From Eledone cirrhosa (Eukaryota), in assembly GCA_964016885.1 (NCBI GenBank), contig OZ024741.1, forward strand, positions 42,904,001 to 42,968,000: 64,000 bases of DNA. The letters run 5' to 3'. The position numbers and the translations under genes are program-made. A model generated the notes under the pieces. It had not been told where the DNA came from and searched no databases. It worked only from the letters and a program-made list of their open reading frames with translations. Below are positions 9,997 to 46,132 of this stretch, in pieces (position 1 is the stretch's first letter; each line of letters opens with the position of its first letter).

Positions 9997-10039
9997 TTGA
10001 TTCTTTGTTCTCTAGTTATTTTTATTATTATTATCATTA

Positions 10040-12350
10040 CTCTACGCAAATAGGGTAAATGATCCTTTCTCCCCTATCCTATTCCTCACCAAACATGCCC
10101 CTACTCAGAATAGACAACATAAATGCACATGGCCTGGGGTCGTCATGGAAGCAGGGTCACTTGCTCAACAACCTCAGCTCAATGAACAAAGATGTGGTGG
10201 TCATCAGGGAGACCAGAATTTCTGAAGCACGAGCCATCGCACCGATCTTCGGCGGCTACAATGCGTATGCATCTCCCAGCCATCCGGGAGCGGGGGTGAA
10301 GTTGCTGTTCTTTTCCGGAGAGGCTTGGATATCGCCGTACGGGCCACCTTCCTGGACCCAGAAGGTAAGTCGGTGGTGCTAGACGTGACCGGCAGCGAAG
10401 TTAATGTTTTCAGGCTAGTAGCCGTCTACGCCCCAACAGGGACAGGACGGTCAGATTTCTTCAGATGTCTAGAGACCTTTCTAGGAACGTCCCACTCTTT
10501 AGTGTTAATGGGCGACTAGAACGGTATATTAGATGTACACTGGGATTATGTGGGGCTAGTATACAGGGCAGGAGGGTGTAAAAGCCTCAGCAAGCTGCCC
10601 AGACCTTTCGAACTGTCTGACAGGTATCGACTGAATTATCCGAATGTGCCAATGAGGATATGAGCACACCGCATCGGGTTATCCAGATCGTATCTAGATA
10701 GGGTATTCTGTAGGGAAACAGATAAGGCTAGTGAAGGTTGTCCACAATTTAAAGTAATCGACTAGACGGACCACAAATGTGTGATATGTGAAATTGACTT
10801 AGGTAGACTCCATAGCCAGGGCGCGGTTACTGGAAGCTGAGCGCGCAAAGCTTACAGAGACCGGATTAGCAAATTAGTTAAGCGTGCGTTGACGGGTGCG
10901 ATCGTCAACAACAGGTGGTTTACCCTGAAAAGGGCAATTAGAATAGAATCGATAAGGTTTAGCAAAGGAGTAGCGATAGAGGAAAACGGAGTAGAGGGAG
11001 TGCTATTTAGAAGGCTAGAAGAGGCGTTTAGGTAAGGGATCATAACGGATATGCTTGTGGTGAGATTGGCACTCAACCAATTCTTCACTGCAAAGCACAA
11101 AGGCTGCGTTGTCAGAGCCTGAGTACGTGGTCTGAGACACGATGGGACGAAAGCCGTCCAATGAGTCCGGGTGGTAGAGGCGCGATGTTTCAACAAACCC
11201 ACAATTCGGTCTTTGCCTGACCCAAAACGGGCGCATGTTGCTCGAACCCGAGCAGATATATGAGGCTTTTCAGCAGCACTTTGTTCAACTTTTCGGGAGT
11301 AGCGGTGGGCCAGATCGGAGTATTAACTTCGGTGCATACTTCGACGGACTGCTCTGGCTCTCGACGACCGCAGCGCAGTGTTGCGAAAAGCCGATAACAG
11401 CAGGTGATATACGGGAAGCGATATCTGATCTCACGAGGGGTAAATCGCCATGTTTGGATGGTCTGCCCTACGAGTTTGATGCGTACATATCAGACTTGTT
11501 CAGTGACCTGTTGGTAGACGTCTACGGGGAGACCCTGGGCGTCGAAGATCATCAGCCGTTCGCTCTCTTCGGGAGAACCTTCAGGCCGTGGGCTATGTAT
11601 AACTTCCAGAAATACCTGGCCTGGCAGTGCCAGGTATATAAATACCGGGTAGCGTTGCCGGTTCGAGATAAGCTCTACAGGCACGGAAGTGCCGTCAGCC
11701 AAACCTGTCGGAGATAAGCGCAGGGCGACGAAACCGTCGTGAACGCACTCGTTCAGTGCCCGAGCATTGCTGACTTGTGGGACTATGCCGACCTGTTGCT
11801 GTTGCGTGCAGCACGGATCCGGTTATCGACTGAGTCCACTGTGCAGAGAGCCCCACCGTCCTCCTTTAAGGAGCAGGAAGGGCTAGAAGTTTTCATTTGT
11901 GGGCAAGGTTGAAATGATTGAAGACGGACACTTTCCTCTCCGGGGAATCCCCGATAAACTTTTTCAAATTTCACCCGAAGAAGAAAATCAGGGTGGAGAG
12001 GAAATTGCTGTCTTCTAGTAAGTTTGTTGAAAGGTGGGTAAAAGTGGCGACTCTGGTCCGAGTGAACGGCCTCGCTCTGAGTATGCGCCTGTAAACTGAG
12101 GAGTGGGAGAACTGACAGAGGGCTCTTTACCTGGTGGTCAGGGTGGCCGTGGTATTTTGTGAGGTTTTCGCCACGTGTAACGACCTATTGGGGCATTTTT
12201 GTTGATTAAATTTCTTAATTTTTATGTTATTTTTTAATGTTATATTCTTTTTTGTACACGACTAAGACCAAATCTGTATCATTCTATACCGTTCTGTGTC
12301 GTCTGCAATGTCTTTCTTCGTGTTAGCCCTTGTGGCCAATAAAGAAACCA
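10040..12350 (+). mobile_element. Tx1-clade LINE copy T1, 5'-truncated, RT core deleted
   Basis: APE motifs INAHGL, ETR, VYAPTG, MGD; fused at ~11525 to the C-terminal YRVALPVRDKL..C..C region; 3' end gcccttgtggccaataaagaaa; (ATT)-rich 5' flank. Confidence 0.85.
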
Positions 12351-12352
12351 TT

Positions 12353-12535
12353 GTCAGTATCGGTAGAGGGTCGGACGCCATGCTTTCCAGCATAGTTAAG
12401 TCCCTTTACGATCTGAGTTCAAATCCCGCCGAGGTTGACTTTGCCTTTCATCCTTACGGGGTCGATAAAATAAAGTACCAGTAATGCACTGGGTAATTTG
12501 CTGGCATTGTGCCTAAAGTAGAAACAATTATTATT
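12353..12535 (+). mobile_element. tRNA-derived SINE
   Basis: Same head, B-box, core and tail; directly abuts the T1 3' end. Confidence 0.85.
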
Positions 12536-12550
12536 TGTATTATTATTATT

Positions 12551-13578
12551 GTTCTTTGAGTCTCAGTCATTGATGCTATTTAACTGGAAGGTTTGTTGAA
12601 ATGGATATCAAACCACTACCTGCAGCCTCAGACATTCAGGACGTATCGGAGGCTTCTTGCTGTTCACAGCAAGCATGCCTTTTGAAGTGTTCCAAAAAGC
12701 GGGGCTGGACTAATCATCTTTAACCATCCTTGGAAACTCTTTGAGATAGTACCTAGTGCGCCTATGTCAATCGGGACGACCGTGATTTCATGGCAGTTCC
12801 AAATCCTTTTTAACTCCCACTTTAGATGCTGGTGTCGATTAATTATCTCCCTCTCCTTTTCTTGCACTCTCGTGTCAAATGGGCATGCTACATCTACAAT
12901 CAGGCACGATCTTTTTTCCTTGTGCAAAACCACCAGGTCAAGCCTATTGTGTTCTAATTTCTCGTCCGTCTGTATCCTAAAATCCCATATCACCTTCACC
13001 TGATCGTTTTCTATCATCGACTCTGGCTTATGCTCATACCACTTTTCAGAATGTGGTAAATTGTTTACTTTGCATAGATTCCAGTGGATCCCCCTGCCTA
13101 TCACATCATGTCGCCAGCCTTTATAGTGAGTCTGGGCTAGGTGTTTACACTCGGATACAATATGAGCTATATTCTCCTCTCTCCAGATTTTCTCCTCTTC
13201 CCAGCTTGTATCCTGCTCTCACTTTTCGCAATATGACGGACAGGGGTATTAGATCAAGTACAAACAACATAGACGACAAAATATCTCCCAGGAAGATACC
13301 TCTCTTGATCTTGACGTCATCAAAAGGATTCTCCACCTGATGTTAACTCTGTTTCCCAGGACTTCATACTTTTGCTTAATAGCTGTCTGATGTTATTCTG
13401 CCACCTTGAGGATCTCTAGACTTTTGGTTATCCAAGAATGAGGTACCATTTAGAATGCCTTTTTGTAATCTATCCATCCCATGGCAAGACCAGTGTGCCT
13501 TCTCTTGCAATTCCTCATTACCATCTTATCAATAAGTAACTGGTCTTTGTACCACGGGACTTCTTTCGGCATCGTTCA
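12551..13578 (-). mobile_element. Dong/R4-clade family A fragment with internal deletion
   Basis: ORF 12664-13104 has WDFRIQTD..HNRLDLVV..IVDVACP..PIDIGALG (RLE); RT piece IKRGIFLGDILS is fused at ~13180; family A 3' UTR present. Confidence 0.85.
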
Positions 13579-13581
13579 ATC

Positions 13582-13835
13582 CTCTTGCTTTATGTTCATA
13601 CGAGTTATCTCCAAGTCACAACGAGGTCCGCCATGTTCAAAAAAGAACATACATACTCACACATGCATCTTTAGTGTTTAGACTTGTGATGTACATATAT
13701 TGACAGAATCTTCCTTAGTATATGGGTAGTTCCCATTAGTACTATCTTTTGATAGGATAAGATGGGATTTGGGATAAGTAATCATTAGACCCCTTAGGTA
13801 TCATTCCTAGAGCGGCTACAACCACTGGTATTGTT
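13582..13835 (-). mobile_element. Dong/R4 family B 3' fragment
   Basis: Matches 30869-31155 (3' UTR and ORF end) with deletions. Confidence 0.8.
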
Positions 13836-13839
13836 TGGG

Positions 13840-14005
13840 CGGACACCATGCTTTGAAGCATAGAGTTACGTCCCTTTATGATCTGAGATCAAATCCCTCC
13901 GAGGTTAACTGTGCCTTTCATCTTTGCGGGGTCGATAAAATAAAGTACCAGTAATGTACTGGATAATTGCTGACTTTGTGCTAAAAGTACAAACAATTAT
14001 TATTA
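13840..14005 (+). mobile_element. SINE, slightly 5'-truncated
   Basis: Core and tail followed by (ATT)n. Confidence 0.8.
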
Positions 14006-14040
14006 TTTTTAATTTTTTTAATTTTTTATTATTATTATTA

Positions 14041-14156
14041 TATACGTGTGTGTGTATGTGTGTGTGTGTGTATGTGTGTGTGTGTGTGTGTGTATGTCTG
14101 TCTGTCTTCGTATTGCTGAAATTGAAAGACAATTTTCTACGATACTTGTTGTAACG
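14041..14156 (+). repeat. Left copy of the direct duplication bracketing the retroelement cluster
   Basis: tatac-(GT)n-ttcgtattgctgaaattgaaagacaattttctacgatacttgttgtaacg; recurs at 46133-46258. Confidence 0.85.
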
Positions 14157-14178
14157 TAGAAACAATTATTATTATTAT

Positions 14179-14295
14179 TAAATCCCGTCAAGGTTAACTT
14201 TGCCTTTCATCCTTACGGGGTCGATAAAATAAAGTACCAGCAATGTACTGGGTAGTTGCTGGCTTTGTGCTAAAAGTAGAAGTAATTATTATTAA
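14179..14295 (+). mobile_element. 5'-truncated SINE
   Basis: Begins inside the B-box region; core and tail present. Confidence 0.8.
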
Positions 14296-14299: not shown

Positions 14300-17200
14300 A
14301 CAGTTGCATTTATCTTGCTTTATGTTCATACGAGTTATCACCAAGTCACAACCAGTGACCTCAAGAGACAACAAGGTCCGCCATGTTCAAGAAAGAACAT
14401 ACATACACACACATGCATCTTTAGGTGTTTAGACTTGTGATGTACTTATACTGACAGAATCTTCCGTAGTATATGGGAAGTTCCCATTAGTACTATCTTT
14501 TGTATTTCTCCTATACGCGGGTTTACTGGGATGTGCGATAAATAATCATTAGACCCCTTAGGTATCATTCCGAGAGCGCCTACAACCACTGGTATTGTTT
14601 TAGTCCTCAATTTCCACATTTTTCCAATTTCTATCTCCAAGTCCTTATACTTGCTCAATTTTTCAAATGTTTTTATAGATACATTCTTGTCTATTGGAAC
14701 GGACATATCAATTAGCAGGCATACCCTCTTTTTAAAGTCCTTCAGTATTATATCAGGTCTATTTGCATCTATTTTTCGGTCTGTTTGGATGCTAAAGTTC
14801 CACAAGATTGAGATGTGATCTTTTTCAAGTATGGGAGGTGGTTGATGCTCCCACCAATTCCCACCAGATGGGGCAGGTCAAAATGCTTACACATTATCCA
14901 ATGTATGTATTGTGCAGCTCTGTCATGTCTGTTTAGGTATTCGGTTGGAGCTATAGGACTGCACATTGAAATTATATGATCAATGGTCTCTGGTTGTTTT
15001 TTATATACACGGCATAATGGGTTGCGTCCATTTTTTTTATTATGTTGGCTTGGTAATTTTTTCTTGTGCTGATATAATCAGTCCTTCAGTCTCCGATTTC
15101 AGTCCAGAGGATGCCAACCACTGATGGGTTAAAGTTTTGTCAACATCAGGATTGTTAGCTCGCTCTGGGTATTTTCCATACAGAGGCTTTTCTTGCCATT
15201 TCTTAGCCAGTATCTGTAGCAGTTATTTCTTTGCAGTTACTTTTACCTGCTTTGCTTTTTCTGTGTTTTCCATTTCAGCAGTAAATGGGACTGCCGAAAT
15301 TTGTAGTCCATTACTGTATCTTTGTGCATCTTTTGTAATGGAATATGATCTTTTGATGCTTTCGTGTTTCAACACGAGTTTGATCATCCAATCATGTGAT
15401 TCCCTTAGATATGTAGATAATCCAATTGTTGCAGTTTTCAACGCAATATCTAACTGGATTAACCCACGTCCTCCTTCTTTCCTAGGGAGATATATTCTAT
15501 CTGTATCTGCTTTAGGGTGATTGATATATTCTGTGCATGGTTAAGAATTTTCGAATTTTTGTATCGAGCCTACGGATCTCTGTGCTTGACCAGTTGATCA
15601 CATTTTAACTGTAGGTTACTACTGGTATGACAAACGTGTTTATGGCATCGATCCTATTCCTTGCATTCAATTCCGTACTTAAGATTGCTGTTACTCTGCG
15701 GTAACATTCCTTCCTTATCTTTTCCCTCATTGTCGAGTGCTAGATTCCGTCTCCTTCACAAACACCTAGATATTTGTAAGTTTCCTCTTGATCAAGTTCT
15801 CTTATCACATTCCCCCGATCAAGATTAATGTCTGAACTTTTCAGCAGCTTTCTTCTGGTGAACGTTGCTTTGGCGCATTTATCTTGTCCAAACACCATTT
15901 TAATGTCATCACTGAACTGCTCCACAGTGGATAATAGTGGACAATTGTTCATCCTTTTTTGCAAATTGTTTCAGGTAATCCATGTAGAACAAGTGATTAA
16001 TGGTTTTGTCATAGACTTTATATCCATGTTTTGTTTCATTGAGCATTTTACTTAATGGTATAAGTGCGATGCAGAATAAAAGCGGTGATAAAGAGTCACC
16101 CTGAAAAATTCCACAATTAATATTAACTTCTCCAGCTTCCAGTGATTCATTTTCACTATTCAAAAGGAGTGTCGTTTTCCATGGCTTCATACTGAATGAC
16201 AAGATTCCTGACAACGGGAGATATTTTGAAAATCTCTAAACATTATTCAATCCAACTGTGTAACAAACTATCGAATGCTTTTTTATAATCTATCGAAGCA
16301 ATTGATAGATTTTTGTGTCTATTATGACAATCTTCCAGTATCATTTGTTAACCAAAAGCTTATCCTTACAACCATATGAGCCATAACTTTTCTAAGTTTA
16401 GTTTGTTCAACATGGTCACCTACTTTGTAGTTTCTTAAAATGTCTATGTCAGATCGGAGAAAGTTTATTTGGCGATTGATGTTCTCTTGCCAAGTAGATT
16501 TCTTGTGGGAATTCCTTTGTTTTTTCATTTTCACTCCACATAAGTGAGTGGTGACTTTAGCCGATGCATAATAGAGATGATTTAAATCAGTAATGTTTAG
16601 TTTGTTTGTGATGATAATGTTTTTGAGAATTATGTTAGTGTTATGTATTATCTTTTGGTTCTGTTTGGAGTTCTGGATCTTAGGGAGGGTGTCAGATTCT
16701 TTCATTTTCATCCATTCGATCATAATTTCATCCTTCAAGTTGGCAAGTTCATTCTCATTCATTTCCTTATCATTTACGATCTCATTGTTTTCATTTTGAG
16801 TTTCATCTTGAGCATGCACTCCCTCCACTTTTTCGATCCTTTGTTTAATTTGTTCTGTTGTCAGTGATTCTGCTACAACCCTGGGATTCGAAGTGTTACA
16901 ATTTACCTCGTTTTCACTGACACATGTTTCATTTTCCCTTCGCTGACTTTGTGCTAATAGCCAGATCTGATCAATTTCTATATCAGTTAGTAACTTTTTT
17001 TTTACAATATTTCTTCGTATATTGACTAGTTTGTTACTGTCAATATAGCCTCTGTTTTCGGGATGTTTCTTTTTCCAGTTGATATATATCTGTTCTGTAT
17101 TGGGTCTATTTGATGGGTAGTACAAGGACTTCTTTATTATCTTTCCTTGACCATTTTTCTCTCTTTTTCTTTGGATTTCTTGGTGGTGAGCATGGAGGGC

Positions 17201-18418
17201 CAACCGTAGGAGTATTCCGGCTATGGGAGGTCTCCAGCTCCGAAGTGATGGGTAGGTTTGAACCATTAGCTGATTTTTCGACCCCAGTCTGGTTCCTCTC
17301 TGACGGACGCGGCCCTTTTTGACAAGGGTGACGCCCGATCCGGTATGAGATTTTATCATTTGACATTTACTTTATTTTGTCGCGTTTTATCCTTAACGGC
17401 CAAGGGGTAATCATATCATGCTACCACTTCTAGGACGAGTGTCAACCAAGACTAGAGGGGTCGTCCTCCACTAGAGACACGGCTATTATCCGCCGGCCGC
17501 CATCCCGGTATTTCTTGGTCACGGGGTTTTCTTTTTTGTTGTTTTTTAAATTGTTATTATCATGAGTGGTTCCTTAATGTGTGCATTGCGAGGCTTATGA
17601 ATGAAATTATTATTAATAATATAATATATTTTTTGCTGAAGTTGCCTGTTTTTGTTGTTGGCTATGTCGGTGGTGGTGCTGGGGCTTTTTACATTGTTGG
17701 TGGGGAAGGGGGGAGTCAGCAGTCCCATAGTCGTTGACATTTTACCGAGTCACTAAGTCAATCTATTTATATCTTTTGCTAGCCTCTCCCTTGTCTAGTG
17801 ATACCGCCACCTTCCTCTTTCTTAAGTTAACAGAAGGTAATAGGGGAAATAGTGGTGGTAGCAATGAAGGAGTGGTGGCAGCGGTGATGGGATAGTGGTA
17901 GCAATGATGCATGGAGTGGTGGCGGCGGTGACTATAGTGATGGCGTTGTCGTTACTCAATGTTGTTGAATATACTCTAGTAGTATGCGTTTGTTTGATCT
18001 GTGTATCTATGCGGTTTGTCGCGTATGTTTAATATATGTGTTGACATATTTCCATAATATTTGAATTAAACATTTTGAGAAAACTTGAGATACAATAATA
18101 GTAATTATTATTATGCTGGGACGCCATGCTTTGCAGCAAAGAGTTACGGCCCTTTATGGTCTGAGTTCAAATCCCGACGAGGTTAACTTTGCCTTTCATC
18201 CCTACGGGGTCGATAAAATAAAGTACCAGTAATACACTGGGATAATTGCTGGCCTTGTGCCAAAAGTAGAAACAATTGTTATGCTGGGATTGGTGGTGGT
18301 GAAATTGCCATTATCTGGCTGTTGTATTTAGTGTACACAGAAGGGTGAAGTGATAGGTGGTGTATCTAGTTTGTGGTGTTGGTGAGATTGCTGTTATTTG
18401 GCTGTTCTGTATAGTGTA
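14300..18418 (-). mobile_element. Dong/R4 family B copy B1, near full length, decayed, internal deletion at ~16385
   Basis: N-terminal KREKWSRKDN; RT GIFQGDSLSPLLF and HLFYMDYLK; RLE RHD, NRPDIIL, LIDMSVP, KLSKYKDLE; GGT-rich upstream region; 5' end abuts a TAA tract. Confidence 0.85.
18119..18280 (+). mobile_element. SINE inserted in the B1 5' region with a short target-site duplication
   Basis: Flanked by ttatgctggga on both sides; absent from the homologous block at 30395-30410. Confidence 0.85.
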
Positions 18419-18439: not shown

Positions 18440-21400
18440 TTTTTCAACGTTTTACCTCGATTTCAACCGTTCTAAACCTTTTATTCAAGTTTTAAATTTG
18501 ATAAAAGTTTAGAAGAAGTGACCCACCTAATACAGGGGTTCACTCGTAAATAATACAGCACCACTTTACGGGGTGTCGCATTCGTATTTGTGTAAAAATA
18601 TATATTTTTTTGAAAAAATTTCAACATGGATAACACAAGAAACAGAGAGAGCGCTGTCAGACAACACAGAGAGAGGGAGACTTTATCAGCATGTCAACAA
18701 GACAGCGTTCCAGCGGAGGTAAATATAAACGAAAATATTACAAAGGAAAAGAAGATTGTTACAGATTTAAAATTAACAAATATTTCTAACACAAACAACA
18801 CCAACAATAACACCAACAACAACACCAACAACAATAACATCAGCAACAACACACATAACAGCGGTAAAGTCGAGAACGACAATAACAATGACAATAACAA
18901 CAGTCACAACAATAATAGTAGGAACAGTATAAACAAAAACAACAATAATAACAACACCCACAATAACAGTAACAACAGCAACAGTATCAACGAAAACAAC
19001 AACAACACCAACAACTGTACCAACGAAAACAACAACAATGACACCGATAGCTGTAATAGCGATCTCAGCACCACCAGTAAGACCAGTAGCGGCAGCAATA
19101 GTGGTGCTACTGAAAAGGGGACCATTTCTTTTGCAGGTGTCGCCCGAAATATCGAGACAGTGTTAGCCACAGAGGAGGAGATGGCAGTCGCAAAGGCCAT
19201 GGTGACAAGAAGCGCCAATAGAGTCTCCCTGAAACCTCCACCCGATTTTTTCAAGGACCAGCAGTTACGGACGGTGACTTACCGCACCGTAAGCAAACTC
19301 TCACATCAGGTGAAGAGAGCCAGGAAGGCTCAAATCCAAAAGGCCTTGGGGTGCGACTGGGCACGCAAAACCCACATCACCCGAGGCAGAAAGTACGCCA
19401 CAGTAGACGTACTTTTCGCCACCCCCCAGGAAGCAAAGTCTCACTCTTTGGAAACCCTAAAGAGTGAGGAGATAATCTTGGTGCCCTCCTACTGCGGGCA
19501 GAAAATTGTGAGGGTCAAAGTAACCCAGGTCCCACCCGAGGTGCCCATACCTTGGCTGGGTGCGTCTGTCCTTGCTGGAATTGAGAACATGGTCTGCTGC
19601 AAGTAGAAAAAATAGGGAGAGAGAACTGGTCAGGTATAGGCATGAAAATGCTTATACAAACTGACCAGGAATGTATCGACGCTATCCCCGATATCATAGA
19701 CATCGAGGAAGGACTCTAACTCCCTATAAGTGTAGAAAGAAGACGGCCAAAATGTTATCTCTGTGGGTCGAAGGGTCACCTCAGGGCCTTTTGCCCGCAG
19801 AAGACAGCGAAGAAGGCCCCTCTCCTTCCAATACCTGCTACGCTACTACCAATAGCCCCTTCCACGGTGAGTAGGAGGGCAACGTCCGTAGCACCCGTAC
19901 CAAGGCCACGGACAACTAAAGCAGCATCATCAGTGGCGGCAACACCAATAGCTACATTTGAAGTAGCTACAGCAGCAACAAAAATGCCGAAGAGGGCTCC
20001 ACTACCACCACCAACAGCCGTGGAGTACATACCCCTCCCAGACGCCAAAGAATCCGACATGGAGTTTGAGGCGGGAGTGAAGTGGTAAACGGTCTGCTAC
20101 AAAAAAACAAAAAACAAAAACCCTTAGATTCACCCTCCAAAAGCGAAGGCATACAAAGACGGGTAAAGGCAGCAAGGAAACTTGCAGCAACACCACCCCC
20201 ATCACCACCACAAGCACCACTGACAACAACAACCACACCACCACCAGCATCACCAAAAACACCAACAACGCAAACACAACAAGACACACACATCAAACAG
20301 CAACAAGAAGAAAACAGCAACAAAATCACCCCTCCCCCCTAAAAAGTACACAGACATAAACATGGCAAAAAAAGAACTCATACAATATATAAAGCAGCAC
20401 ACAAACATCACAGAAAAAAACTACTACACCCCACCAACACCAAGAACTCTCCCGACAAACATAAGCATCATCGAAATCTCAATAGAACAGTACAAACAAT
20501 TAAAACAAAAATTCCTCAACGCAGTTGGAGACTTCAGAGTGTCGGTTACCAAGAGGATATACACTGACATCCTCTTGGAAACACCCATGACCAGCGAAAG
20601 GGATGGTTCAACTGTCCCTTGACCACACGATCAAGGTAAGTGACCCTTTCTCACTTTCCCCGTTTCTCAGCCAACATTGCCGTACTCAGAATAGGCAGTA
20701 TAAATGCACGTGGCCTGGGGTCATCTTGGAAGCAGAGTCACCTGCTCAACGACCTCAGGTCACTAAACATAGATGTGGTGGCCATCAGTGAAACCAGAAT
20801 CTTCGAAGAACAAGCCTTCGCACCGATCTTCGGCGGCTACGATGTATACGCATCTCCCAGCTGTCCAGGATCGGGGGGAGGGGTTGCCGTACTATTTCGG
20901 AGAGGCTTGGATCTCGGGATACGGGCCATCTTCCTGGACCTAGAAGATAAGTCGGTGGTGCTGGACGTGACCGGCAGCGAAGGCAATGATTTCAGGCTAG
21001 TAGTCGTCTACGCCCCAACAGGGGCAGGACGGCCAGATTTCTTCAGAGGTCTAGAGACCTTTCTTGGAACATCCCGCTTTTTAGTGTTAGTGGGCGACTG
21101 GAACGGGAGGAGGGTGCAAGAGCCTCATCAACCTGCTCAGATGTTTTGAACTGCCTGACAGGTACCGAGTGGATCACCGAATGTGCCAATGTGGACATGT
21201 ACAAACCGCATCGGGTCATCCAGATCGTATCTAGATAGCGTATTCTGCAGAGAACTCGATAAGGCTAGTATAAGTTATCCACAATTTAAAATAGTCGACT
21301 TCACAGACCACAAATTTGTGATCTATGAGATCGAGATAGACAGACTTCATAGGCAAGGGCCTTGTTAATGGAAGCTGAACGCGTCTTTCCCAGCGCGCAA

Positions 21401-24136: not shown

Positions 24137-24138
<2 letters not shown>
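18440..24138 (+). mobile_element. Tx1-clade LINE copy T2, full length, decayed
   Basis: ORF1 (18626-20639, Asn-rich N-terminus, frameshifted); ORF2 APE INARGL/SETRI/VGDWN/SYLD/TDHK, RT NFRPITLLN, SVRQGCPLS, AYADD, C-terminal Cys region; ATT repeats on both flanks. Confidence 0.92.
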
Positions 24139-24168: not shown

Positions 24169-24174
24169 GTTATT

Positions 24175-30615: not shown

Positions 30616-30787
30616 TTTGAGTGATATAACAGAATATTATGGATCCGAATTTTCTGATAGTTGAGTCTGGAGCTTTATGTATCATTTGTACTAAGAATTG
30701 TTATTTCACGATTGATTTAAATATGTTAAAAATCAAAAACTTACGGGAGCGATTTCATGACCTTCTCTCCACCACGTGCGTCTTCCC

Positions 30788-30855: not shown

Positions 30856-30857
<2 letters not shown>

Positions 30858-33391: not shown

Positions 33392-33392
33392 C

Positions 33393-33442
<50 letters not shown>

Positions 33443-33444
33443 GT

Positions 33445-37223: not shown

Positions 37224-40200
37224 GTTGTTATTCCTTGAATCTCAGTCATTGATGTTGGTTAACTGGAAAGTCCGTTGGATTGAATATCAAGCCACTACCT
37301 GCAGCCTCAGATATTCAGGACGTATCGGAGGGTTCTTGCTGTTCCAAGCAAGCATGCCTTTTGAAGCGTTCCAAAAAGCGTGAAGGGGCCGATTTTCTTT
37401 AACCATCCCTGGAAACTTTTGGAGTTAGTCCCCAGTGCGCCTATGACAATCGGGATCACTTTGACTTCATGGCAGTTCCAAATCCTTTTCACCTCCCACT
37501 TTAGGTCCTGGTATCGGTTAATTTTCTCCCTCTCCTTCTCTTGCACTCTCGTGTCGAACGGGCAGGCCACATCCACAATCAGACACGATCTTTTTTCTTT
37601 GTCCACAACCACCAGGTCAGGTCTATTGTGTTCCAGTTTTTTGTCCGTCTGTATCCTAAAATCCCACAGCACCTTCACCTGATTGTTCTCCATCACCGCC
37701 TCTGGCCTATGCTCATACCATTTCTCAGAATGTGGTAAATTGTTTACTTTGTACAGGTGCCAGTGGATCACCCTGCCCATCACATCGTGTCTCCAGCCCT
37801 TATAGTGGGTCTGGGCTAGGTGTTTACACTCGGACACAATGTGAGCCACAGTCACCTCTCTCTCTCCACAGATCCTGCACAGTGGGCTAGCCTCCTCCTT
37901 GTAGATATGGTGCTTCAACCACTTCCTCTTGAGGGCCTGCTCCTGCGCAGCCATTAGCATTCCTTCCGTAGCCTTTTTGAGGTCTCCTCTTCTCAACCAG
38001 TTCCATGTCTGTGGATCTCTAAATTCAGTTTTCTCAGAGAAGGTACTATGAAGGGATTTTCCCTTAAGGCTGCTCTTCCTCCTTGATGTTATTTCCTCCT
38101 TGGACATCCCCTGGCCTACTGTCCCCTCCTTCAGTACAGTTCTGAGCATTGGCTCCTTACTATAGGTCACGTATTTGTATAGGTTGTTTTTCTCCATCTG
38201 AACACAGTCCTCTATGCTGATAAGACCTCTTCCACCCTCAGATCTCCTTAGGTAGAGTCTATCGACATCACTCCTCTTGTGGAACATGTTGTAGATAGTC
38301 AATAGCTTCCTAGTCTTCCTATCCATTTCTTTTTGTTCAGCAATATTCCATCTCAGAATTCCCGCTCTGTACCTAATAATAGACACAGCTCGGGAATTTA
38401 CTGCGCTTATGGCATTTCTGCTGTTCAGATGTGACTTCAATACGCTCCTTACTCTCCGAATGTATTCAGTTCTTAACAATTCCTTCATTTTTTTGTTCTT
38501 TATGCCATCAGCCTCCAGAACGCCCAAATACTTGTATCCTTCCTCAGAGTCAATTTCCTTTATCATCTCACCTGTTGGTATCTGGATCCCGTTACTTCTG
38601 CTCAACCTACCCCTCTTCATCACAATGACTCCACATTTACCAATACCAAACTGCATACATATATCACTGCTGAAAATACGGACAGTGTCAACAAGCACAT
38701 CCAACTCCTTCTCACTTTTCCCGAAGAGCTTAAGATCGTCCATGAAGAGGAGGTGATTGATGGTAAGCTCTCCCCTTCCCAACTTGTATCCTGCTCTCAC
38801 TTTTCGCAGCATAATGGTCAAGGGCATCAGGGCAAGGACAAACAACAGAGGGGACAGGCTATCTCCCTGGAAGATACCTCTCTTGATCTTCACGCTTCCC
38901 AAGGATACTCCAGTTGATGTCAACTCTGTCTCCCAGGACCCCATACTCCTGCCTAGCAACTGTCTGATGTTATCTGCCACCCTGAAGATCTCCAGGCTTT
39001 TGGTGATCCAGGAATGAGGCACCATGTCAAATGCCTTTCTGTAGTCTATCCATCCCATGGCAAGATCAGTGTGTCTCCTCCTGCAATTCCCCATTACCAT
39101 CTTATCAATAAGTAACTGGTCCTTTGTACCACGTGACTTCTTTCGGCATCCTTTCTGTTCGTCCGGTAACAAGTTGTTTGTGTTGAGGTGATGGTAGATT
39201 TCCTCAGACACAATGCTCGTCAACAGTTTCCACATTACGGACAGACATCTGATAGGTCTATAGTTGGTAACATCATTACCCTTGATTCGGTCTTTCATTA
39301 TCAGAACTGTGGTACCTTTTGTCAACCACTCTGGCACCTCACCCGACACCAAGCAGTCATTGAACATGGCCGTCAGCTTCGGGTGGAGGGATGTTAAATG
39401 TTTAATCCAATACCCCTGCACACCATCTGGGCCTGGTGATTTCCAGTTGGTTAGTTTTTTGGCCTGCCCCTTAAGAGTTTCAACTGTGATACTCAAATCA
39501 GTTTGTTGTTGTGCCTGCTCACCGATCTCCCTCTGTACTGTCTCAATCCACCCTGCCTGGGCATTGTGTCTAACATCCTGATCCCATATTCCTCTCCAGA
39601 ATGTTTTAGTTTGCTCCGCCCCAGGGATCAAGTCGTTGCCTCTTTCTTTCCCCTCAAGCTGTCCAAACAGCATCTTCTGGTTGTTGTCGAACATGCGGTT
39701 CTGTTTATACTGACTGACTCTGTTCTCGTATCGCCTGATTTTTGTACTCTTTGCTACAATGCGTTGCTTCAGTTCCTCTATGATAATATTTAGCTTTTTC
39801 CTCCTAGTTTTGTATTTTATTTCCAGTCTATTTTTAGTGCCTATGTTTTTTAGTGTCCCATTCAGTAGTGACTCAAGCTTTCCTATGTCATTTCTCATTT
39901 CCCCGATTTGCCCACTCAGTCGCTTCTTCCACCACGGCTCTGCTCTTTCTTGTCTGTTGTTTCCTCTCGCTTTTATACCAAGTAGTTTCCTCACCGTATT
40001 TGCTGTTGCTTTGAGGATATTGTTGCACTGGTGAAGGCTCCTCGCCTCAAGGTATGGGATGACTTTGTTTACCTTAGCTGTTGTTTCTTTTAACTTTTTC
40101 CTGTCTACAAATCTTAGCTTCATAGGTCTCCCACTATCATTGTTCAATTCATCTACCACTAAATTTAGGATGTCAACCGAATCTTGTCCTAGCCCGTCAG

Positions 40201-40279
40201 CATTCATCTCCTCAGTGGCCGTATCTCTGTTCCAGGTATTATTTATCTCAGTATTCAGATCATTGTCTGCTTCGGGTGT
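37224..40279 (-). mobile_element. Dong family A copy A4, 5'-truncated, uninterrupted ORF
   Basis: Nearly identical to A2, arranged head-to-tail across (ATT)n. Confidence 0.95.
37307..40207 (-). CDS. R4/Dong-clade RT + CCHC zinc knuckle + restriction-like endonuclease (966 aa, N-terminally truncated)
   Basis: KSPGPDG, NYRPI, WIDYRKAFD, GIFQGDSLSP, FMDD, YKYLG, CRIC-x8-H-x4-C, RHD, RPDLVV..IVDVACP..K..RYQDL. Confidence 0.93.
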   Translation of the reverse strand: MNADGLGQDSVDILNLVVDELNNDSGRPMKLRFVDRKKLKETTAKVNKVIPYLEARSLHQCNNILKATANTVRKLLGIKARGNNRQERAEPWWKKRLSGQIGEMRNDIGKLESLLNGTLKNIGTKNRLEIKYKTRRKKLNIIIEELKQRIVAKSTKIRRYENRVSQYKQNRMFDNNQKMLFGQLEGKERGNDLIPGAEQTKTFWRGIWDQDVRHNAQAGWIETVQREIGEQAQQQTDLSITVETLKGQAKKLTNWKSPGPDGVQGYWIKHLTSLHPKLTAMFNDCLVSGEVPEWLTKGTTVLIMKDRIKGNDVTNYRPIRCLSVMWKLLTSIVSEEIYHHLNTNNLLPDEQKGCRKKSRGTKDQLLIDKMVMGNCRRRHTDLAMGWIDYRKAFDMVPHSWITKSLEIFRVADNIRQLLGRSMGSWETELTSTGVSLGSVKIKRGIFQGDSLSPLLFVLALMPLTIMLRKVRAGYKLGRGELTINHLLFMDDLKLFGKSEKELDVLVDTVRIFSSDICMQFGIGKCGVIVMKRGRLSRSNGIQIPTGEMIKEIDSEEGYKYLGVLEADGIKNKKMKELLRTEYIRRVRSVLKSHLNSRNAISAVNSRAVSIIRYRAGILRWNIAEQKEMDRKTRKLLTIYNMFHKRSDVDRLYLRRSEGGRGLISIEDCVQMEKNNLYKYVTYSKEPMLRTVLKEGTVGQGMSKEEITSRRKSSLKGKSLHSTFSEKTEFRDPQTWNWLRRGDLKKATEGMLMAAQEQALKRKWLKHHIYKEEASPLCRICGEREVTVAHIVSECKHLAQTHYKGWRHDVMGRVIHWHLYKVNNLPHSEKWYEHRPEAVMENNQVKVLWDFRIQTDKKLEHNRPDLVVVDKEKRSCLIVDVACPFDTRVQEKEREKINRYQDLKWEVKRIWNCHEVKVIPIVIGALGTNSKSFQGWLKKIGPFTLFGTLQKACLLGTARTLRYVLNI

Positions 40280-40280
40280 C

Positions 40281-40314: not shown

Positions 40315-43300
40315 GGCGACCTACGCAGTTAATCGTATTATCGTGAGCTCCGCAAAGGTTTGTTAATTTCAGTTGTTTAAAATTGCCATTTATGGAACAT
40401 TTTTATTGTTAACTGTATATAAGTGAACATACATTGATTTCTGAAAAGGACACTCATAAAGATTGGGGCCTTGAGCCCAAAGTTTAAACTTTTTATAATT
40501 ATCAAACCAAAAATATTTCTTGGAAAAATCATGGCCGACTCAGAGCTGAACCCAGTAGCTGAGAGCCTTCCTCACAAACTAACACCTCACACCGACACCA
40601 CCATTGTAAATACTACTAGGTTTGCCAACACTAAAAAGATAAGCAATAGCAATATTTTTAATTTGTCTCAGGCAGACATTCATTTCCGGCCATTACCAAT
40701 GACTGCGGTGTTGAAGCCGCCACCCCCACCACCACCACAGCGGCAACAGAAACAAAAGAAAATAAAAATTAATTATTATCGTGATATGGAAACGAATTCA
40801 GCCAAAATGAACTCTTCCACACCGAACACCACTAACGCCAGCACCACGACAACTGAAACTAAAATTAACAATAACAAAAATAACGATAACAACAACAGCA
40901 ACAATGAGAATAAGAAAACCCTGTCTTTTGCCAGAGTAGCAAAAAAAGTGCGAAGTATTCCAACTAACTCAGGAGGAATTAGAAGAAGCAAAAAAAATGG
41001 TAAAGAAAGATGGGTACAGGGTCAGCTTCACCCCCCCCCCCCCCCGCCTAATAAAATGGAACATCGGCGCCTATGCACCGTGTCTTATCGGACGATTAAC
41101 ATAAAATCGCACCGAGTGGAACGGGCATCCGAGTCCCAAATCCAAAAAGCTTTGGGACATGTGTGGGCAAAAAAACCCACATCAGAAATGGGCAGAAATA
41201 TGGAACCGTAGACGTGTTCTTTGAAACACCACAGGAGGCCAGAGAACACTTCATGGCCCCCATTAAGAAGTGACGACTTCACACTCGTCCCAAGCTATTG
41301 TGGCCAGAGACTCGTAAGATCAGGGTGAGTCACGTACCACCGGCCATCAAAATTCCCTGGCTAATAGCTGCCGTCCTCGCCGGCATCGAAGCCAACACCA
41401 AGATAAACGAAATAGCGAAAGAAAAGCAGGAGAACTGGTCCGGATCTGGGATGGAGCTCCTGATCCAAGCGGACCACAAACACATTGAAGGGATCCCAGA
41501 GGTAATATACCTCACTGACGGCAGCCACCTCACCGTAATCGTCGAGGGCAGAAGGCCTAGGTGTGTCGTTTGTGGTGAAGGAACCCACCTAAGGGCTTTC
41601 TGCCCTCAGGCTAAAAGGTTGAGGCCACCTCTCTTAACCAACTCAGTGACTCAACCATCAACACCACCAGCCGCAGAAATGGCAGCAACAACTGTAGCAG
41701 CAACAACAGAAGCAAATGTAACAGCAACAACCCCAGCAACAGTAGCAAAACCAACACCACCACCACCCAACGCGCCAGAACTAGCACCAACGCCTACACC
41801 ATCCACCACGCCACAACCAACACCAACGCCTGTGGAGGATTTTCCACTCCCCGACCTATCGCAACTGGAGATAGATTGTGACGACGAGGAGTGGGAAACG
41901 GTATCAGGAAAAAAGAAAATAAGAAAAAGAAACCAAAAAAGAAAAAATTCTCTTCCTTCCCCCTCCAAAAACAAAATACAGAGGGAAACAAATAAACTAT
42001 CAAACAAAAAAGTTAGGACAGCTATGCCACCATCCACACCAGCATCACCAACCCCATCACCACAAACACCAACACCATCACAATCATTAACCCCAACACC
42101 ACCATCAACAACACCACAAAAGTCACCAAAAAGCGAAACAGAAACAAACCCACAACAAACGCAGACAAAACAAAACACCCCAAAACGATACACACTATAC
42201 AGCATTAAATTTGAACAACAACCAATTATTACACCACATCCAACACAACACCACCATCACAGAAAAAGACTACACAACAACCCAAAAGTTCACACCACCT
42301 CCAAACATACAGATCACTCGCATCAGACAGAAAACGTACACGACACTGAAACGAAAATTCCCCAAAGACATCGGAGACTTCCGACAGGCACTCTCCAGGA
42401 GGATTTATAAGGACATCTTTCCAGAGGAGGCCACGAGCAGTGAAAAGGATGGAGAAACCATCCTTCCTCTACGAGAAGTAAGGTAAGTGGTCTTTCCCAT
42501 CTTTTCCACTCCTTTTCAACATGACCTCACTCGGAATAGGCAGCATAAATGTGCGTGGCTTGGGGTCGTCATGGAAGCAGGGCCACCTGCTCCAACGACC
42601 TCAGGTCACTAAACATAAATGTAGTGGCCATCAGCGAGACCAGAATCTCCGAAGCACGGGCCTTCGCACCGATCTTCGGCGGCTACGATGTGTACGCATC
42701 TCCCACCCGTCCTGGATCGGGGGAGGATATTCTGTCCTTTTTCGGAGAGGTTTGGATCTTGCCATACGGGCCATCTTCCTGGACCCATAAGGTAAGTTGG
42801 TGGTGTAAGAAGGTAGTGTTAGTGGGCGACTGGAAAGGGTTCTTAGATGCACGCTGGGACTGTTTGGGATTAGCGGATATGGGAGGAGGGTGCAAGAACC
42901 TCACCAACCAGCTCAGGAGTTTTGAACTGTCTGACAGGTACCGATTGGATTTCCCGAATGTGCCAATGTTGACTTGGACAAATCGCATAGGGTCATCCAG
43001 ATCATATCTAGATAGAGTATTTTGTAGGGAAATAGATAGGTCTAGCATAGGCTGTCCACAATTCAAGATAGTCAGCTACACGGACCACAAATTCGTGATC
43101 TGTTGTTTATTTAGATAGGCTTCATAGACGATGATCCGGCTACTGGAAGCTAAAGGGCATCCTTACCAGCGCGCAAGGACTACAGAGGCCGGATTAACGA
43201 ACTAGTTAAGCGGGCGTTGACGGGGATCATCGTTAACAACAAGTGGTGGTTTGCTCTGAAAAGAGCGATTAGAATAGAGTCCATTAGGTTTAGTAATGCT

Positions 43301-46068
43301 TTAGCAATAGAGAAAAATAGTGCAGAGGGAGAACTAGTTACAAAATTAGACGAGGCGCTTAGCAAAGGCATCGCGACCGACGTACTTGCGGCGAAATTGG
43401 CCCTTGACCAATTCTTCAAATCAAAGCACGAAGGCTGCGTTGTCATAGCTAGGGTGCGTGCTCTCAGACACGAGGGCATGGAAGCCGTTCAATGGGCCCG
43501 AGTGGCGGAGGTGCGTCGTGGCAACAAAGCCACGATCCGGTCTATGGTGGACCACGACGGGCGCATGCTACTCGATCCCGGGAAAATATGTGAAGTTTTT
43601 CAGCGACATTTCGCCCTGCTGTTCGTGGGCAGCGGCGGGCTGGATCGAGGGATGGACTTTAGTGTCTATCTCGACGGACTGCTGCGGCTCTCGGCCACTG
43701 AGGCGGAGTGTTGCGAAAAGCCGATAACAACCGCTGAAGTACGGGAGGCAATGACTGGCTGCACAGGGGGTAAATCGCCTGGTTTGGATGGTCTGCCCTA
43801 TGAACTTTACGTACAGATGCCAGACATGTTCGGAAGCCTCTTGGCGGACGTCCACTGCAACTGGCAACAGAACGGGAGAATTCCCACCTCTGTGAGCCGA
43901 GGAGCTGTGGCGCTGCTGAGAAAGGATCCGAACAAGGGGGATAACATACATAATTTCAGGCCCATAACTCTGCTAAACACACAGTTCAAGATTTTGGCCA
44001 AGGTGCTAGCAAAGAGGTTGGCGCTTGTCGTTGGTAGTCTGGTGGGAGAGGCGCAGATGTGCGCCATTCCCGACAGTTCCATACACGACAACCTCCACCT
44101 CATGCGATACATCGTAGAGAGGGTAGCTAGGGAACCTGGCACTGGTGGGTCCTTGATCATTTTAGCTCAGTCGAAAGCTTTCGATAGGGTCAACGATCGT
44201 TACCTAGCGGCAGTCCTGAGGGCGGCTGGCTTTGAGCCCGTCTTCAGAGGCTGGATCGCTGCCATGCACAGCGATATCTGCTCTATGGTGAGAGTGAACG
44301 GTCACCTTTCGGAACCGTTAAACATCATGCGCTCGGTCCGCCAAGGATGTCCCCTCTCCTCCCTCTTGTACGTATTGACTGTCGAGCCATTACTGCACTA
44401 ACTGGAGCCGTTGAGGGGGGTCCCGCGCGAACTAGGATGCGGAAGATCCGTGTCAGAATATGCGGACGATGTCACCGTAGTAGTGTCGAACGCCAAACAC
44501 ATCGAGGCGATCAGCGCTACAGTAAAAGGATACGAAGCGTTGACAGGAGCAATGATCAACCAGGAAAAGTCAGTGGGCCTGCAGCTCGGCACTTGGAGAG
44601 GCAGGTCTATGCCGTCCAACAGCGTCGTCGGGCGCTGGACGGACGAACCGGTTAAATTGCTCGGGGTCTGGTTCGGTACGGACCTCCAGACGGACAAAGA
44701 CTGGGACGAGGTGACGAGCAGGGTTGCTGCTCTCACCCAGAAATGGGCCGAGAGGAAGCAATCCCTGAAAGTCGAGCGGAGGTGGCTAACGCGTACATCA
44801 CGTCCGTCATCTACTACCGCCTGACCGTCGTACCTTGTCCTAAGCCCCTCCTGACTGCGCTGGAGCGTTTGCTCTTTCGCTTTTTGTGGAAGGGACGCGC
44901 TCCGATGGTCAGGCGGTCTATCTGCTGTCAACACCCGCTACATGGAGGGTTGGGCATGCCGTGGCTGATGATGCGCAGACACGCGCTCAGGCTACGACAT
45001 CTCCACCTCTTCCTCGACGGTGATCAGGTGTGGTCGCCGTTTGCTAGACACGTATTTCCCCAGCTCGTCTCCTTGACGGAGCTGCAGTCCTGGGTCAAGC
45101 GAAGACCGAGAGGGAGCGCTTGGAGACTGGAATGTCTTCAGGCGCTCACAGCCCTCTACCAATCGGGCAATGTGATCGGTGGAAACTCCACCTTAGCGTT
45201 CTATAGAGGATTAGTGGAGGGGGAGAGCGACGACGTACTTGGAGAAACTCTAGCCGTCTACGAAAATCAACTAGCCAATCTCTTCGGAAGAACTTTCGGG
45301 CCGGGGTCTATGGACAACTTCCAGAAATCCCTGGCCTGGCAGTGCTACCGAGGAGCTTTACCAGTTCGGGATAAACTCTACAGGCATGGACGTGACGTCA
45401 GCTGTGCATGTCCGAGATGCGCGCAGGGCGACGAAACCGTCCTGTACGCACTCGTCCAGTGTCCGAGCATTGCTGACTTGTGGGTTTATGTCGAACACCT
45501 GCTGTCACGTGTAGGACGGATCCAGCTATCAGCTGAATCCATCGTGAGGATTGCCTCGCTCTTTACCTTTAGCCGGGAAGGGCAGGCAGTTTTTATCTGT
45601 CTGGTGGCCATGGCGAAAGAGATAGTATGGTGGATGCATCTGAAAGGGCTGAAGATGAGCACTTACCTCTTCGGTGATGCCCTGATTAACTTTTTCAATT
45701 TTCAATTGAAAAGGAAAATCAGGGTATAGAGGGAAGTGCTCTCTTCCCAGCATTTTGTTGAAAGATGGGTGAGAGAAGTAAGTATGGCCCGAGTGAATGG
45801 GCCTACTCTGAGTACGTATCTGTAAATTAAAGGTGGAAAACTGGGAGAGGGCACTTGCCTTGGTGGTCAGGGTCACTGTGGCCTTTTACTGGGCTTTTTC
45901 CACAAATGTCCCTCGGAAGTCTCCCCCCTATTGAGGAATTTTTTCTTTGTTATTTTATTACATCCTCTGTTTTTTACACGCAGAAATGCCCATTTGTACC
46001 GTCCTGTATTGTCCTGTACTGTCCTTAATGTCTACTTTATGTAAACCCTTGTGGTTAATAAAGAAAAC
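40314..46068 (+). mobile_element. Tx1-clade LINE copy T3, full length, decayed
   Basis: ORF1 with CVVCGEGTHLRAFC knuckle and Pro/Thr-rich tail; ORF2 APE-RT (EYADD) and CPRC..ETVLYAL..C; pure (ATT)n on both flanks. Confidence 0.92.
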
Positions 46069-46077
46069 ATTATTATG

Positions 46078-46124
<47 letters not shown>

Positions 46125-46132
46125 CATTATTA

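What the first reader, a model, noticed from the sequence alone, without database searches (positions are those of the whole stretch)
10020..46130. A 36-kb retroelement community on (ATT)n with strict strand polarity
Seen: about 18 insertions or fragments, mostly separated only by (ATT)n. Every Dong copy (A and B) is minus, so its tail reads (TAA)n; every Tx1 and SINE is plus, so its tail reads (ATT)n. Where the repeat is flipped (51245-51305, 6931) Tx1 and SINE flip too. Established: Dong/R4 elements target TAA repeats and several Tx1 lineages are sequence-specific. Inference: unrelated RLE and APE endonucleases have converged on opposite strands of one microsatellite, and each insertion regenerates the target, giving a self-amplifying array.
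Basis: partly seen in the sequence, partly recalled or inferred. Interest (0 to 1): 0.75.

Follow-up and report, generated by a model that had tools for sequence, protein, structure and literature searches.

The report
Opposite-facing retrotransposons stacked in ATT repeats
In this animal genome (likely an octopod), two unrelated kinds of jumping gene sit in the same three-letter ATT repeat facing opposite ways and form mixed stacks such as this 36-kb one, likely because each insertion leaves a fresh landing site, while a short passenger element that lands on just five letters likely borrows the enzymes of one of them.

Summary
Observation confirmed. 10035-46068 holds 17 insertions: 9 Dong/R4-like LINEs (all minus), 3 Tx1-like LINEs and 5 SINEs (all plus); 15 of 18 junctions carry (ATT)n. 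The rule is genome-wide: 1532 of 1687 full-length Tx1a 5' ends follow an in-phase (ATT)4; 24 of 30 full-length Dong 5' ends follow (AAT)n, 0 of 30 (ATT)n. Corrections: the SINE is not microsatellite-specific. It lands on ATTAT (47 of 57 unbiased copies), its 'tail' is a ~18-bp target duplication, and it shares a 3' hairpin with Tx1, so there are probably two machines, not three. The flipped tract at 51246-51305 is an RTE's own 5'-UTR repeat. Opposite-strand priming follows from target-primed reverse transcription, but whether nuclease preference or RNA-primer pairing sets it is untested. Dong on (TAA)n, microsatellite-specific Tx1, antiparallel sharing (TRAS1/SART1) and target regeneration are each published; an (ATT)n-specific Tx1 sharing Dong's target was not found in the papers searched. 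This scan has reported the same system on other DNA of this genome (8 notes shown).

The parts
10016..10034 (+). Left-edge (ATT)n tract, at the right end of an inverted-repeat element (9685-10023)
10035..12350 (+). Old, 5'-truncated, internally deleted Tx1-like LINE (83% best identity to other copies)
12350..12526 (+). Young SINE inserted 3 nt after the Tx1 3' end
12553..13576 (-). Dong A-like fragment with an internal deletion
13583..13836 (-). Dong B 3' fragment
13837..13995 (+). SINE
13996..14165 (+). Local duplicate of the array's right flank (ATT tract, (GT)n, ~65 bp of otherwise unique DNA), followed by a ~10-nt SINE 3' stub
   Evidence: the unique part occurs only here and at 46208-46276
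14180..14281 (+). 5'-truncated SINE
14300..18418 (-). Dong B, internally deleted, truncated within its 5' UTR
18119..18274 (+). SINE nested in the Dong B 5'-UTR ATT run, with a ~15-nt target duplication
18440..24138 (+). Tx1b LINE, nearly full length with an internal deletion; ORF1 with CCHC knuckle, ORF2 with APE and RT
24169..24468 (-). Young 5'-truncated Dong A (100% best identity to another copy)
24514..25755 (-). 5'-truncated Dong A-like copy
25773..25814 (+). SINE 3' fragment
25852..30787 (-). Likely one full-length Dong (A2-type ORF, B-like first 0.7 kb of UTR); its 5' end abuts a 69-nt tract
   Evidence: L058 spans the UTR junction
30857..33393 (-). 5'-truncated Dong B
33443..37160 (-). 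Dong A truncated in the 5' UTR; ORF with in-frame stops
37224..40280 (-). 5'-truncated Dong A with an open 990-aa frame (RT, CCHC, PD..D..K nuclease motif)
40315..46068 (+). Full-length Tx1a LINE with an in-phase ATT|G 5' junction and no poly(A)
46069..46133 (+). Right-edge (ATT)n tract
51246..51305 (-). Internal (ATT)n tract of the RTE (47715-51245) 5' UTR, carrying a Tx1a insertion (51306-57015, minus)

Best explanation
Dong/R4-like and Tx1-like retrotransposons sit in the same (ATT/AAT)n repeat facing opposite ways throughout this genome, and they likely pile up because each target-primed insertion splits a tract and leaves tract on both sides for the next one. Shown: the shared target, the polarity, tract on both sides of Dong inserted in a known empty site, the SINE's ATTAT target and ~18-bp duplication, and different truncation points for every copy in the window. 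Inferred from established TPRT: Tx1 (APE nuclease) primes from a nick in the AAT strand, at AAT/AAT, a TpA step; Dong (restriction-like nuclease) primes from the ATT strand. Inferred: a second Tx1 nick at the ATT/ATT TpA step about 15-18 nt away gives the in-phase 5' junction; Dong leaves the longest tracts at its 5' side, by slippage synthesis or by choosing long tracts; and the SINE is mobilised by Tx1 proteins through a shared 3' hairpin, with relaxed specificity. The array is thus two selfish machines feeding one substrate pool, with no partnership needed.
For: Tx1a 5' ends: 1532 of 1687 exact copies follow in-phase (ATT)4; background 1.2e-4. Tx1 3' ends: 90 of 98 start ATTATT and none has poly(A). 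Dong 5' ends: 24 of 30 follow (AAT)4+ within 40 nt, 2 more behind a (GAA)n run, 0 follow ATT. All 62 truncated Dong 5' ends that touch a tract are AAT-sense; a truncated end cannot carry an element-encoded head. Across the tract, 28 of 28 independent full-length Tx1a 5' ends meet another retroelement (my reading, leaving out the window's own copy and one duplicate), and 18 of 30 Dong 5' ends meet Dong or Tx1. Empty-versus-filled test at the RTE 5'-UTR tract: 11 of 20 copies are empty; Dong insertions leave tract on both sides (about 9+13, 21+21 and 30+45 nt) against 9-36 nt in empty copies; a SINE there made an exact 18-nt duplication (L287). Tract medians: Dong 5' side 39 nt (n=92), other junctions 24.5 (n=94), free tracts 13.5 (n=24). 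In 600 kb of unselected DNA, 6 of 8 tracts of 30 nt or more touch Dong or Tx1. SINE: ATTAT at 47 of 57 unbiased and 39 of 49 young-set 3' ends; duplication found in 29 of 57 and 31 of 49, mode 18. A hairpin with loop CTTGT and compensatory stems occurs in Tx1a/b/d/e/g and the SINE, but not at Dong ends.
Against: Direct Tx1 target duplications are few: L230 about 17-18 nt, L007 14 nt, L250 9 nt. For 35 Tx1 3' ends with an imperfect flank, no convincing matching 18-mer was found upstream (many loci lacked the 5' end). In L220, L263, L267, L269 and L347 both ends were seen and the 5' flank was pure ATT while the 3' flank was imperfect; this fits an (AUU)n head or later mutation better than a plain duplication. 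Only 14 of 26 clearly truncated Tx1 5' ends have ATT upstream (manual count; 22 of 48 rows dropped as internal deletions, SINE interruptions or library gaps), though 5 of the 9 clear negatives abut a truncated Dong that may have eaten the flank. One Dong insertion in the RTE tract shows no net gain (L305) and one shows loss (L309). The polarity counts are conditioned on touching a tract, and most loci were best BLAST hits, so they are biased to young copies. The SINE-Tx1 tail match is only about 25 nt. Nothing was tested biochemically.
Confidence: 0.8

Rival explanations
1. Polarity is set by RNA, not by nuclease strand choice. Both nucleases nick either strand of an AT-rich TpA repeat, but read-through transcripts end in (AUU)n for Tx1 and (AAU)n for Dong and can pair with, and be primed by, only one strand.
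For: The Tx1 AATAAA signal lies 5-9 nt before the element end, so transcripts would be expected to run into the tract, and 0 of 98 3' junctions carry poly(A). Dong A ends in degenerate AAC/AAT units. Both strands of the repeat offer TpA steps, and the in-phase 5' junction itself implies an ATT-strand cut.
Against: SINE duplications beginning GTTAT, ACTAT or ATTAC carry the variant in both copies, and one Tx1 insertion at a non-repeat site added no ATT (L230), so the RNA tail is not copied in. Published swaps show that the nuclease sets the target for SART1/TRAS1 (PMC7265360, passages).
Confidence: 0.35
2. The elements carry and create the repeats (microsatellite heads and tails) and only weakly prefer ATTAT-like sites. 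The long tracts are a product of insertion, and clustering follows because new tracts are the densest source of such sites.
For: Long tracts are mostly next to LINEs; tract length rises with youth of the flanking copy (rho 0.24, n=255, rows not independent); full-length Tx1 5' flanks are purer than their 3' flanks; (GAA)n and AGGG-AAT stutters at Dong 5' ends suggest slippage synthesis.
Against: Truncated Dong ends still abut (AAT)n (62 of 62 tract-touching ends). A pre-existing tract in the RTE UTR is hit by Tx1, Dong and SINE (7 of 20 copies). The SINE, which truly has a 5-bp target, is scattered and rarely touches tracts, unlike the LINEs.
Confidence: 0.2
3. The array arose by tandem duplication or unequal exchange of a few inserts, or is an assembly artefact.
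For: Two adjacent Dong A copies are 98.3% alike, and a ~175-bp local duplication brackets the core.
Against: Every copy has its own 5' truncation point; identities to other genomic copies span 83-100%; no higher-order repeat unit appears; the same junction types recur on many chromosomes.
Confidence: 0.04

Closest known systems
Dong (R4 clade; Bombyx mori Dong and (TAA)n-inserting relatives in insects, molluscs, cnidarians and the ostracod Darwinula; PMC7998251 and PMC3774820, passages read)
   Same: One ORF of about 1140 aa with RT, CCHC and a PD..D..K restriction-like nuclease; sense strand flanked by (TAA)n.
   Different: No difference in target. Here two families only 38% alike in protein share the site with an APE element. 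No HDV-like ribozyme was detected by Rfam.
Kibi (TC)n, Koshi (TTC)n and crocodilian Tx1 (TTCC)n/(TTTC)n families (PMC4494074, passages and section 15 read)
   Same: L1-group LINE with APE nuclease that is specific for a microsatellite.
   Different: The target is (ATT)n, the host is a mollusc, there is no poly(A), and the site is shared with an RLE element. A related family in the same genome ends in (ATCT)n instead.
TRAS1 and SART1 in (TTAGG)n of Bombyx mori (PMC7265360, passages read)
   Same: Two LINE families insert into one simple repeat in opposite directions.
   Different: Both of those are APE-type (R1 clade, recalled) and telomeric. Here the nuclease classes differ and the target is a dispersed interstitial microsatellite at thousands of sites.
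Tandem TE dimers by double insertion, including R1 arrays (McGurk and Barbash, 10.1101/158386, passages read)
   Same: Site preference plus target duplication preserves the target and makes a new one.
   Different: Those are mostly same-family dimers that expand by unequal exchange. Here arrays are mixed, antiparallel and built by independent insertions.
SINE-LINE pairs with a shared 3' stem-loop, including SINEU with Tx1-Mar (PMC3747384, PMC4494074, passages read)
   Same: Shared 3' hairpin with compensatory changes and a shared insertion signature.
   Different: The SINE here is much less specific than its probable LINE partner: a 5-bp motif against a tract.

Membership tests
R4 clade / Dong | Single ORF with RT and C-terminal CCHC plus restriction-like (PD..D..K) nuclease, no APE | tested here: met
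   1141-aa ORF (L211): RVT_1 is the only curated-level Pfam hit; best structures are R2 proteins, with a weak second match over the PD..D..K region; motifs visible.
R4 clade / Dong | Insertion into (TAA)n | tested here: met
   24 of 30 full-length 5' ends; 192 of 193 tract-touching ends AAT-sense.
R4 clade / Dong | RT phylogeny groups with Bombyx Dong / R4 | not testable with these tools
   No named Dong or R4 protein among the 120 hits listed; the original paper is not held.
R4 clade / Dong | HDV-like ribozyme at the 5' end | tested here: inconclusive
   No Rfam ribozyme match on two full-length copies; no dedicated pseudoknot search was run.
R4 clade / Dong | Diverged N-terminal Myb/SANT domain | not tested
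   Described in PMC7998251; no profile-profile search was run.
L1 group / Tx1 clade | ORF1 plus ORF2 with N-terminal APE, RT and C-terminal zinc finger | tested here: met
   Exo_endo_phos, RVT_1 and zf-RVT; best structure is human L1 ORF2p, E 1.7e-49, against R2 5e-19; ORF1 has a CX2CX4HX4C knuckle.
L1 group / Tx1 clade | RT phylogeny inside Tx1 rather than other L1 lineages | tested here: inconclusive
   The only TX1-named hit (Frankliniella, 26%) is unresolved in the tree; Xenopus Tx1L, Kibi and Koshi were not available.
L1 group / Tx1 clade | Sequence-specific insertion | tested here: met
   1532 of 1687.
L1 group / Tx1 clade | 3' poly(A) tail (typical of L1, recalled; not known to me to define Tx1) | tested here: not met
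   0 of 98 3' ends.
tRNA-derived SINE mobilised by Tx1 | tRNA-like head with A and B boxes | tested here: inconclusive
   Box-like motifs seen by eye against a recalled consensus; no Rfam hit on L123.
tRNA-derived SINE mobilised by Tx1 | 3' end shared with the partner LINE, and the same insertion signature | tested here: met
   CTTGT-loop hairpin plus GAAA-C end; both join at ATT in the same phase. In 600 kb of unselected DNA the tail motif occurred 56 times: 51 SINE, 4 Tx1, 1 unexplained. The match is short.
tRNA-derived SINE mobilised by Tx1 | Mobilisation in trans shown | not testable with these tools
   Needs a cell assay.

The most novel reading that the evidence does not exclude
An octopod Tx1 lineage with an undescribed (ATT)n specificity and Dong/R4 elements form a two-nuclease feedback loop on one microsatellite. 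They nick opposite strands, synthesise new repeat at each insertion and so make most of the genome's long (ATT)n tracts. The same Tx1 machine drives a SINE present at roughly 1.5 copies per 10 kb through a relaxed ATTAT target, and a related family has switched to (ATCT)n with changes in the nuclease hairpin loop, which offers a natural swap experiment for how APE nucleases acquire microsatellite specificity.
Probability: 0.4. Interest if true: 0.68.

Novelty: new variant of a known kind. Interest (0 to 1): 0.5.

Why it matters
It gives a concrete rule for retroelement hotspots in a large cephalopod-type genome, where Dong-R4 and L1-Tx1 are among the recently active LINEs and hotspots have been mapped without a mechanism (PMC13282606, parts 1-2 of 3 read). 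It adds (ATT)n, and probably (ATCT)n, to the targets of Tx1-like elements, and names a likely partner LINE for an abundant SINE. It makes an old question testable on one substrate: how much of non-LTR target choice and orientation comes from the nuclease and how much from RNA-primer pairing. Each ingredient has precedent, so it extends rather than overturns current views.

Tried and rejected
A genome search with the Dong A 3' end returned nothing (the tool skips very common words), so Dong 3' flanks were tallied only from neighbouring loci. Rfam found no ribozyme or tRNA head (8 chance-level rows). The sequencing-run search listed no RNA holder; this says nothing on expression, and no reads were laid. 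The ESM Atlas gave only unnamed RT clusters. The RT tree did not place the elements relative to a named Tx1. The first tree nested the (ATCT)n family among the ATT families (99/100), but a longer alignment left it unresolved; monophyly of the six ATT rows was rejected (p-AU 0.009), which may reflect the Argonauta row instead, so the direction of the switch is open. I first read the SINE at one site in four Tx1a copies as an inherited passenger; differing SINE variants and 5' junctions point instead to repeated insertion. I considered RTE as a third ATT-targeter and rejected it: the tract is internal to its UTR. A search for Tx1 18-bp duplications mostly failed. Kojima and Fujiwara 2004 and Xiong and Eickbush 1993 are not held, and Repbase and Dfam could not be searched. 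Literature searches behind 'not found described'. No supplements were read; the target figure and supplementary figures of PMC4494074 could list an (ATT)n Tx1.
Full report
Setting. The window lies on a 416-Mb contig of a 3.0-Gb genome. The closest named relative of the Tx1-like protein is from Argonauta hians at 68% identity, so the host is likely an octopod; this is an inference. The elements are non-LTR retrotransposons.

Observation. Self-comparison and annotation with natural copies resolve 17 insertions in 10035-46068: 9 Dong-like (all minus), 3 Tx1-like (all plus) and 5 SINEs (all plus), plus a ~10-nt SINE stub. Fifteen of 18 non-nested junctions carry (ATT)n, and no AAT-phase tract of 12 nt or more lies inside. 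Each copy has its own truncation point. Best identity to other genomic copies runs from 83-92% for four of the five elements left of 13995 to 91-100% to the right, so the array was built by separate insertions over time. About 175 bp of the right flank is duplicated at 13996-14165, and its unique part occurs only twice in the genome. The simplest reading, an inference, is that the 32-kb core grew inside what was once one short tract.

What the elements are. An intact Dong A copy encodes 1141 aa with RT, CCHC and a PD..D..K nuclease and is closest to R2 proteins among solved structures. Dong A and Dong B are 38% alike. Intact Tx1-like ORF2s (about 1150 aa) have APE, RT and zf-RVT domains and are closest to human L1 ORF2p. 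Placement inside the Tx1 clade is unresolved. At least six distinct Tx1 5' starts occur; all begin with G and follow ATT units.

An exact 21-mer at the Tx1a 5' end occurs 1687 times, and 1532 of these follow a perfect in-phase (ATT)4, against 1.2e-4 per position in 600 kb of unselected DNA. Of 98 distinct Tx1 3' ends, 90 continue ATTATT and none has poly(A). A Dong 5' motif occurs 1551 times. Of the first 30 on contig 1, taken without regard to flank, 24 follow (AAT)4 or more within 40 nt, 2 more do so behind a (GAA)n run, 4 have at most three units, and none follows ATT. Among element ends touching a perfect tract of 12 nt or more in the loci held at that point, Dong was AAT-sense 192 times against 1, Tx1 ATT-sense 185 against 2, and SINE ATT-sense 89 against 3. 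Of the six exceptions, one is an inverted fragment, three sit at ATT-to-AAT switches where the element has its own short run, and two are unexplained. These counts are conditioned on touching a tract and lean to young copies. Truncated Tx1 ends are less tidy: 14 of 26 have ATT upstream (manual count, 22 of 48 rows dropped), and 5 of the 9 clear negatives abut a truncated Dong. Mixed polar arrays appear in many fetched regions, including one of reversed polarity immediately left of the window (L225).

The SINE is different. Among 57 unbiased copies with an intact 3' end, 47 continue with ATTAT but only 1 has a 3' tract of 12 nt or more and 3 have a 5' one. The element ends at GAAACA. What follows is a duplication that starts at that base and peaks at 18 nt (found in 29 of 57 unbiased and 31 of 49 young-set copies), and variant starts appear in both copies, so the letters come from the target. 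Its polarity in a tract follows from a 5-bp motif. Its last 25 nt share with Tx1 a hairpin with loop CTTGT and compensatory stems (GGCC/GGCC, AACC/GGTT, TGGC/GCCA) followed by GAAA-C; Dong ends lack this. One truncated Tx1 at a non-repeat site shows the same ~18-nt duplication (L230). I infer, at about 70%, that Tx1 proteins move the SINE.

Regeneration of the target. The RTE element's 5' UTR has its own (ATT)n: 11 of 20 copies are empty, 7 are filled by Tx1, Dong or SINE, and 2 are otherwise altered. The window's 51246-51305 tract is this site. A SINE there duplicated exactly 18 nt (L287). Dong insertions left tract on both sides: about 9+13, 21+21 and 30+45 nt against 9-36 nt in empty copies; one case lost target and one gained a long (GAA)n. 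Tracts on Dong's 5' side (median 39 nt, n=92) exceed other junction tracts (24.5, n=94, p=1.5e-4) and free tracts (13.5, n=24). Six of 8 tracts of 30 nt or more in unselected DNA touch a LINE. All 28 independent full-length Tx1a 5' ends examined meet another retroelement across the tract, as do 18 of 30 Dong 5' ends by library match. Against a plain duplication for Tx1: five full-length copies have a pure 5' but an imperfect 3' flank, and a systematic search found no convincing 18-mer pairs among 35 informative ends. An (AUU)n head or slippage may therefore contribute. Preference for long tracts cannot be separated from synthesis of new repeat without empty alleles.

Mechanism. By established target-primed reverse transcription, the primer strand is the one complementary to the element's sense strand: AAT for Tx1 and the SINE, ATT for Dong. 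The Tx1 junction phase puts both nicks at TpA steps; the L1 TT/AA preference used for comparison is recalled. Dong's exact nick cannot be read, because its ends overlap the repeat. Whether nuclease preference or pairing of read-through RNA fixes the polarity is open; I put about 0.35 on RNA pairing being the main determinant.

A related family. Two 3' ends in L184 and one in L241 run into (ATCT)n, and one in L170 into a degenerate version; they keep the same hairpin. The L184 nuclease is 61% identical to Tx1a and reads WTWSNRSGTSRSY where the ATT families mostly read WTWTNRIGSSRSY, in the region aligned to the L1 hairpin loop (loop identity recalled). It falls in the same clade as the ATT families and the Argonauta protein, but the order of the switch is unresolved.

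Comparison with print. Dong on (TAA)n is stated for insects, molluscs and cnidarians (PMC7998251, passages; PMC3774820, passages). Microsatellite-specific Tx1 families are known for (TC)n, (TTC)n, (TTCC)n and (TTTC)n (PMC4494074, passages and section 15). TRAS1 and SART1 enter one repeat in opposite directions (PMC7265360, passages). Target regeneration by duplication is argued in 10.1101/158386 (passages). Cephalopod repeat papers list Dong-R4 and L1-Tx1, with no target described in what I read (PMC13282606 parts 1-2 of 3; PMC8967140 and PMC9115989, passages). Passages of PMC4640811, PMC4758252, PMC4824008 and PMC3747384 gave background and no octopus SINE-Tx1 pair. Nine searches found no (ATT)n-specific Tx1 and no RLE/APE pair sharing a microsatellite; Repbase, Dfam, the 2004 survey and supplementary figures were not seen. 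Earlier notes of this scan describe the same system elsewhere in this genome (8 shown); they are unchecked and not counted as evidence.

Verdict. A real, genome-wide, well-supported pattern; a new variant assembled from known parts. Interest 0.5.

Noticed in passing
L184 (3757-4016 and 9627-9716), L241, L170: A related Tx1-like family with the same 3' hairpin ends in (ATCT)n and forms its own tandem array; its nuclease loop differs from the ATT families.
   Followed up: partly
L216, L263, L272, L277; site homologous to the ORF1 region of window 40315-46068: A SINE sits at the same ATTAA site in four Tx1a copies, with different SINE variants and 5' junctions; likely a recurrent hotspot.
   Followed up: partly
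window 47715-51245; L281-L300: An RTE element with C-terminal C2H2 fingers and a microsatellite-rich 3' UTR; its 5'-UTR (ATT)n acts as a mobile landing pad (7 of 20 copies filled).
   Followed up: yes
window 13996-14165 and 46087-46276: A ~175-bp local duplication of the right flank, joined to a SINE 3' stub at a short microhomology; mechanism unexplained.
   Followed up: partly
L310, L320, L343, L213, L230, L333: (GAA)n runs and AGGG-AAT stutters at full-length Dong 5' junctions; possible slippage by the reverse transcriptase at the template end.
   Followed up: no
L223, L347, L349, L356: Tx1f copies join a different 5' region and ORF1 to a Tx1a-type ORF2: a recombinant subfamily.
   Followed up: no
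L225 (immediately left of the window): A second array of reversed polarity with a nearly intact Tx1g (601-aa ORF1, 1150-aa ORF2).
   Followed up: partly
window 3557-4234: A GIY-YIG ORF fragment, probably a Penelope-like element.
   Followed up: no
window 1314-2849, 9685-10023, 58569-58781, 62907-63425: Long inverted repeats or palindromes (one 708 bp at 97%), probably MITE or foldback elements.
   Followed up: no
L166, L169, L179, L182, L188, L189: More distant RLE-type LINEs (26-45% to Dong A) in unselected DNA; their targets were not examined.
   Followed up: no
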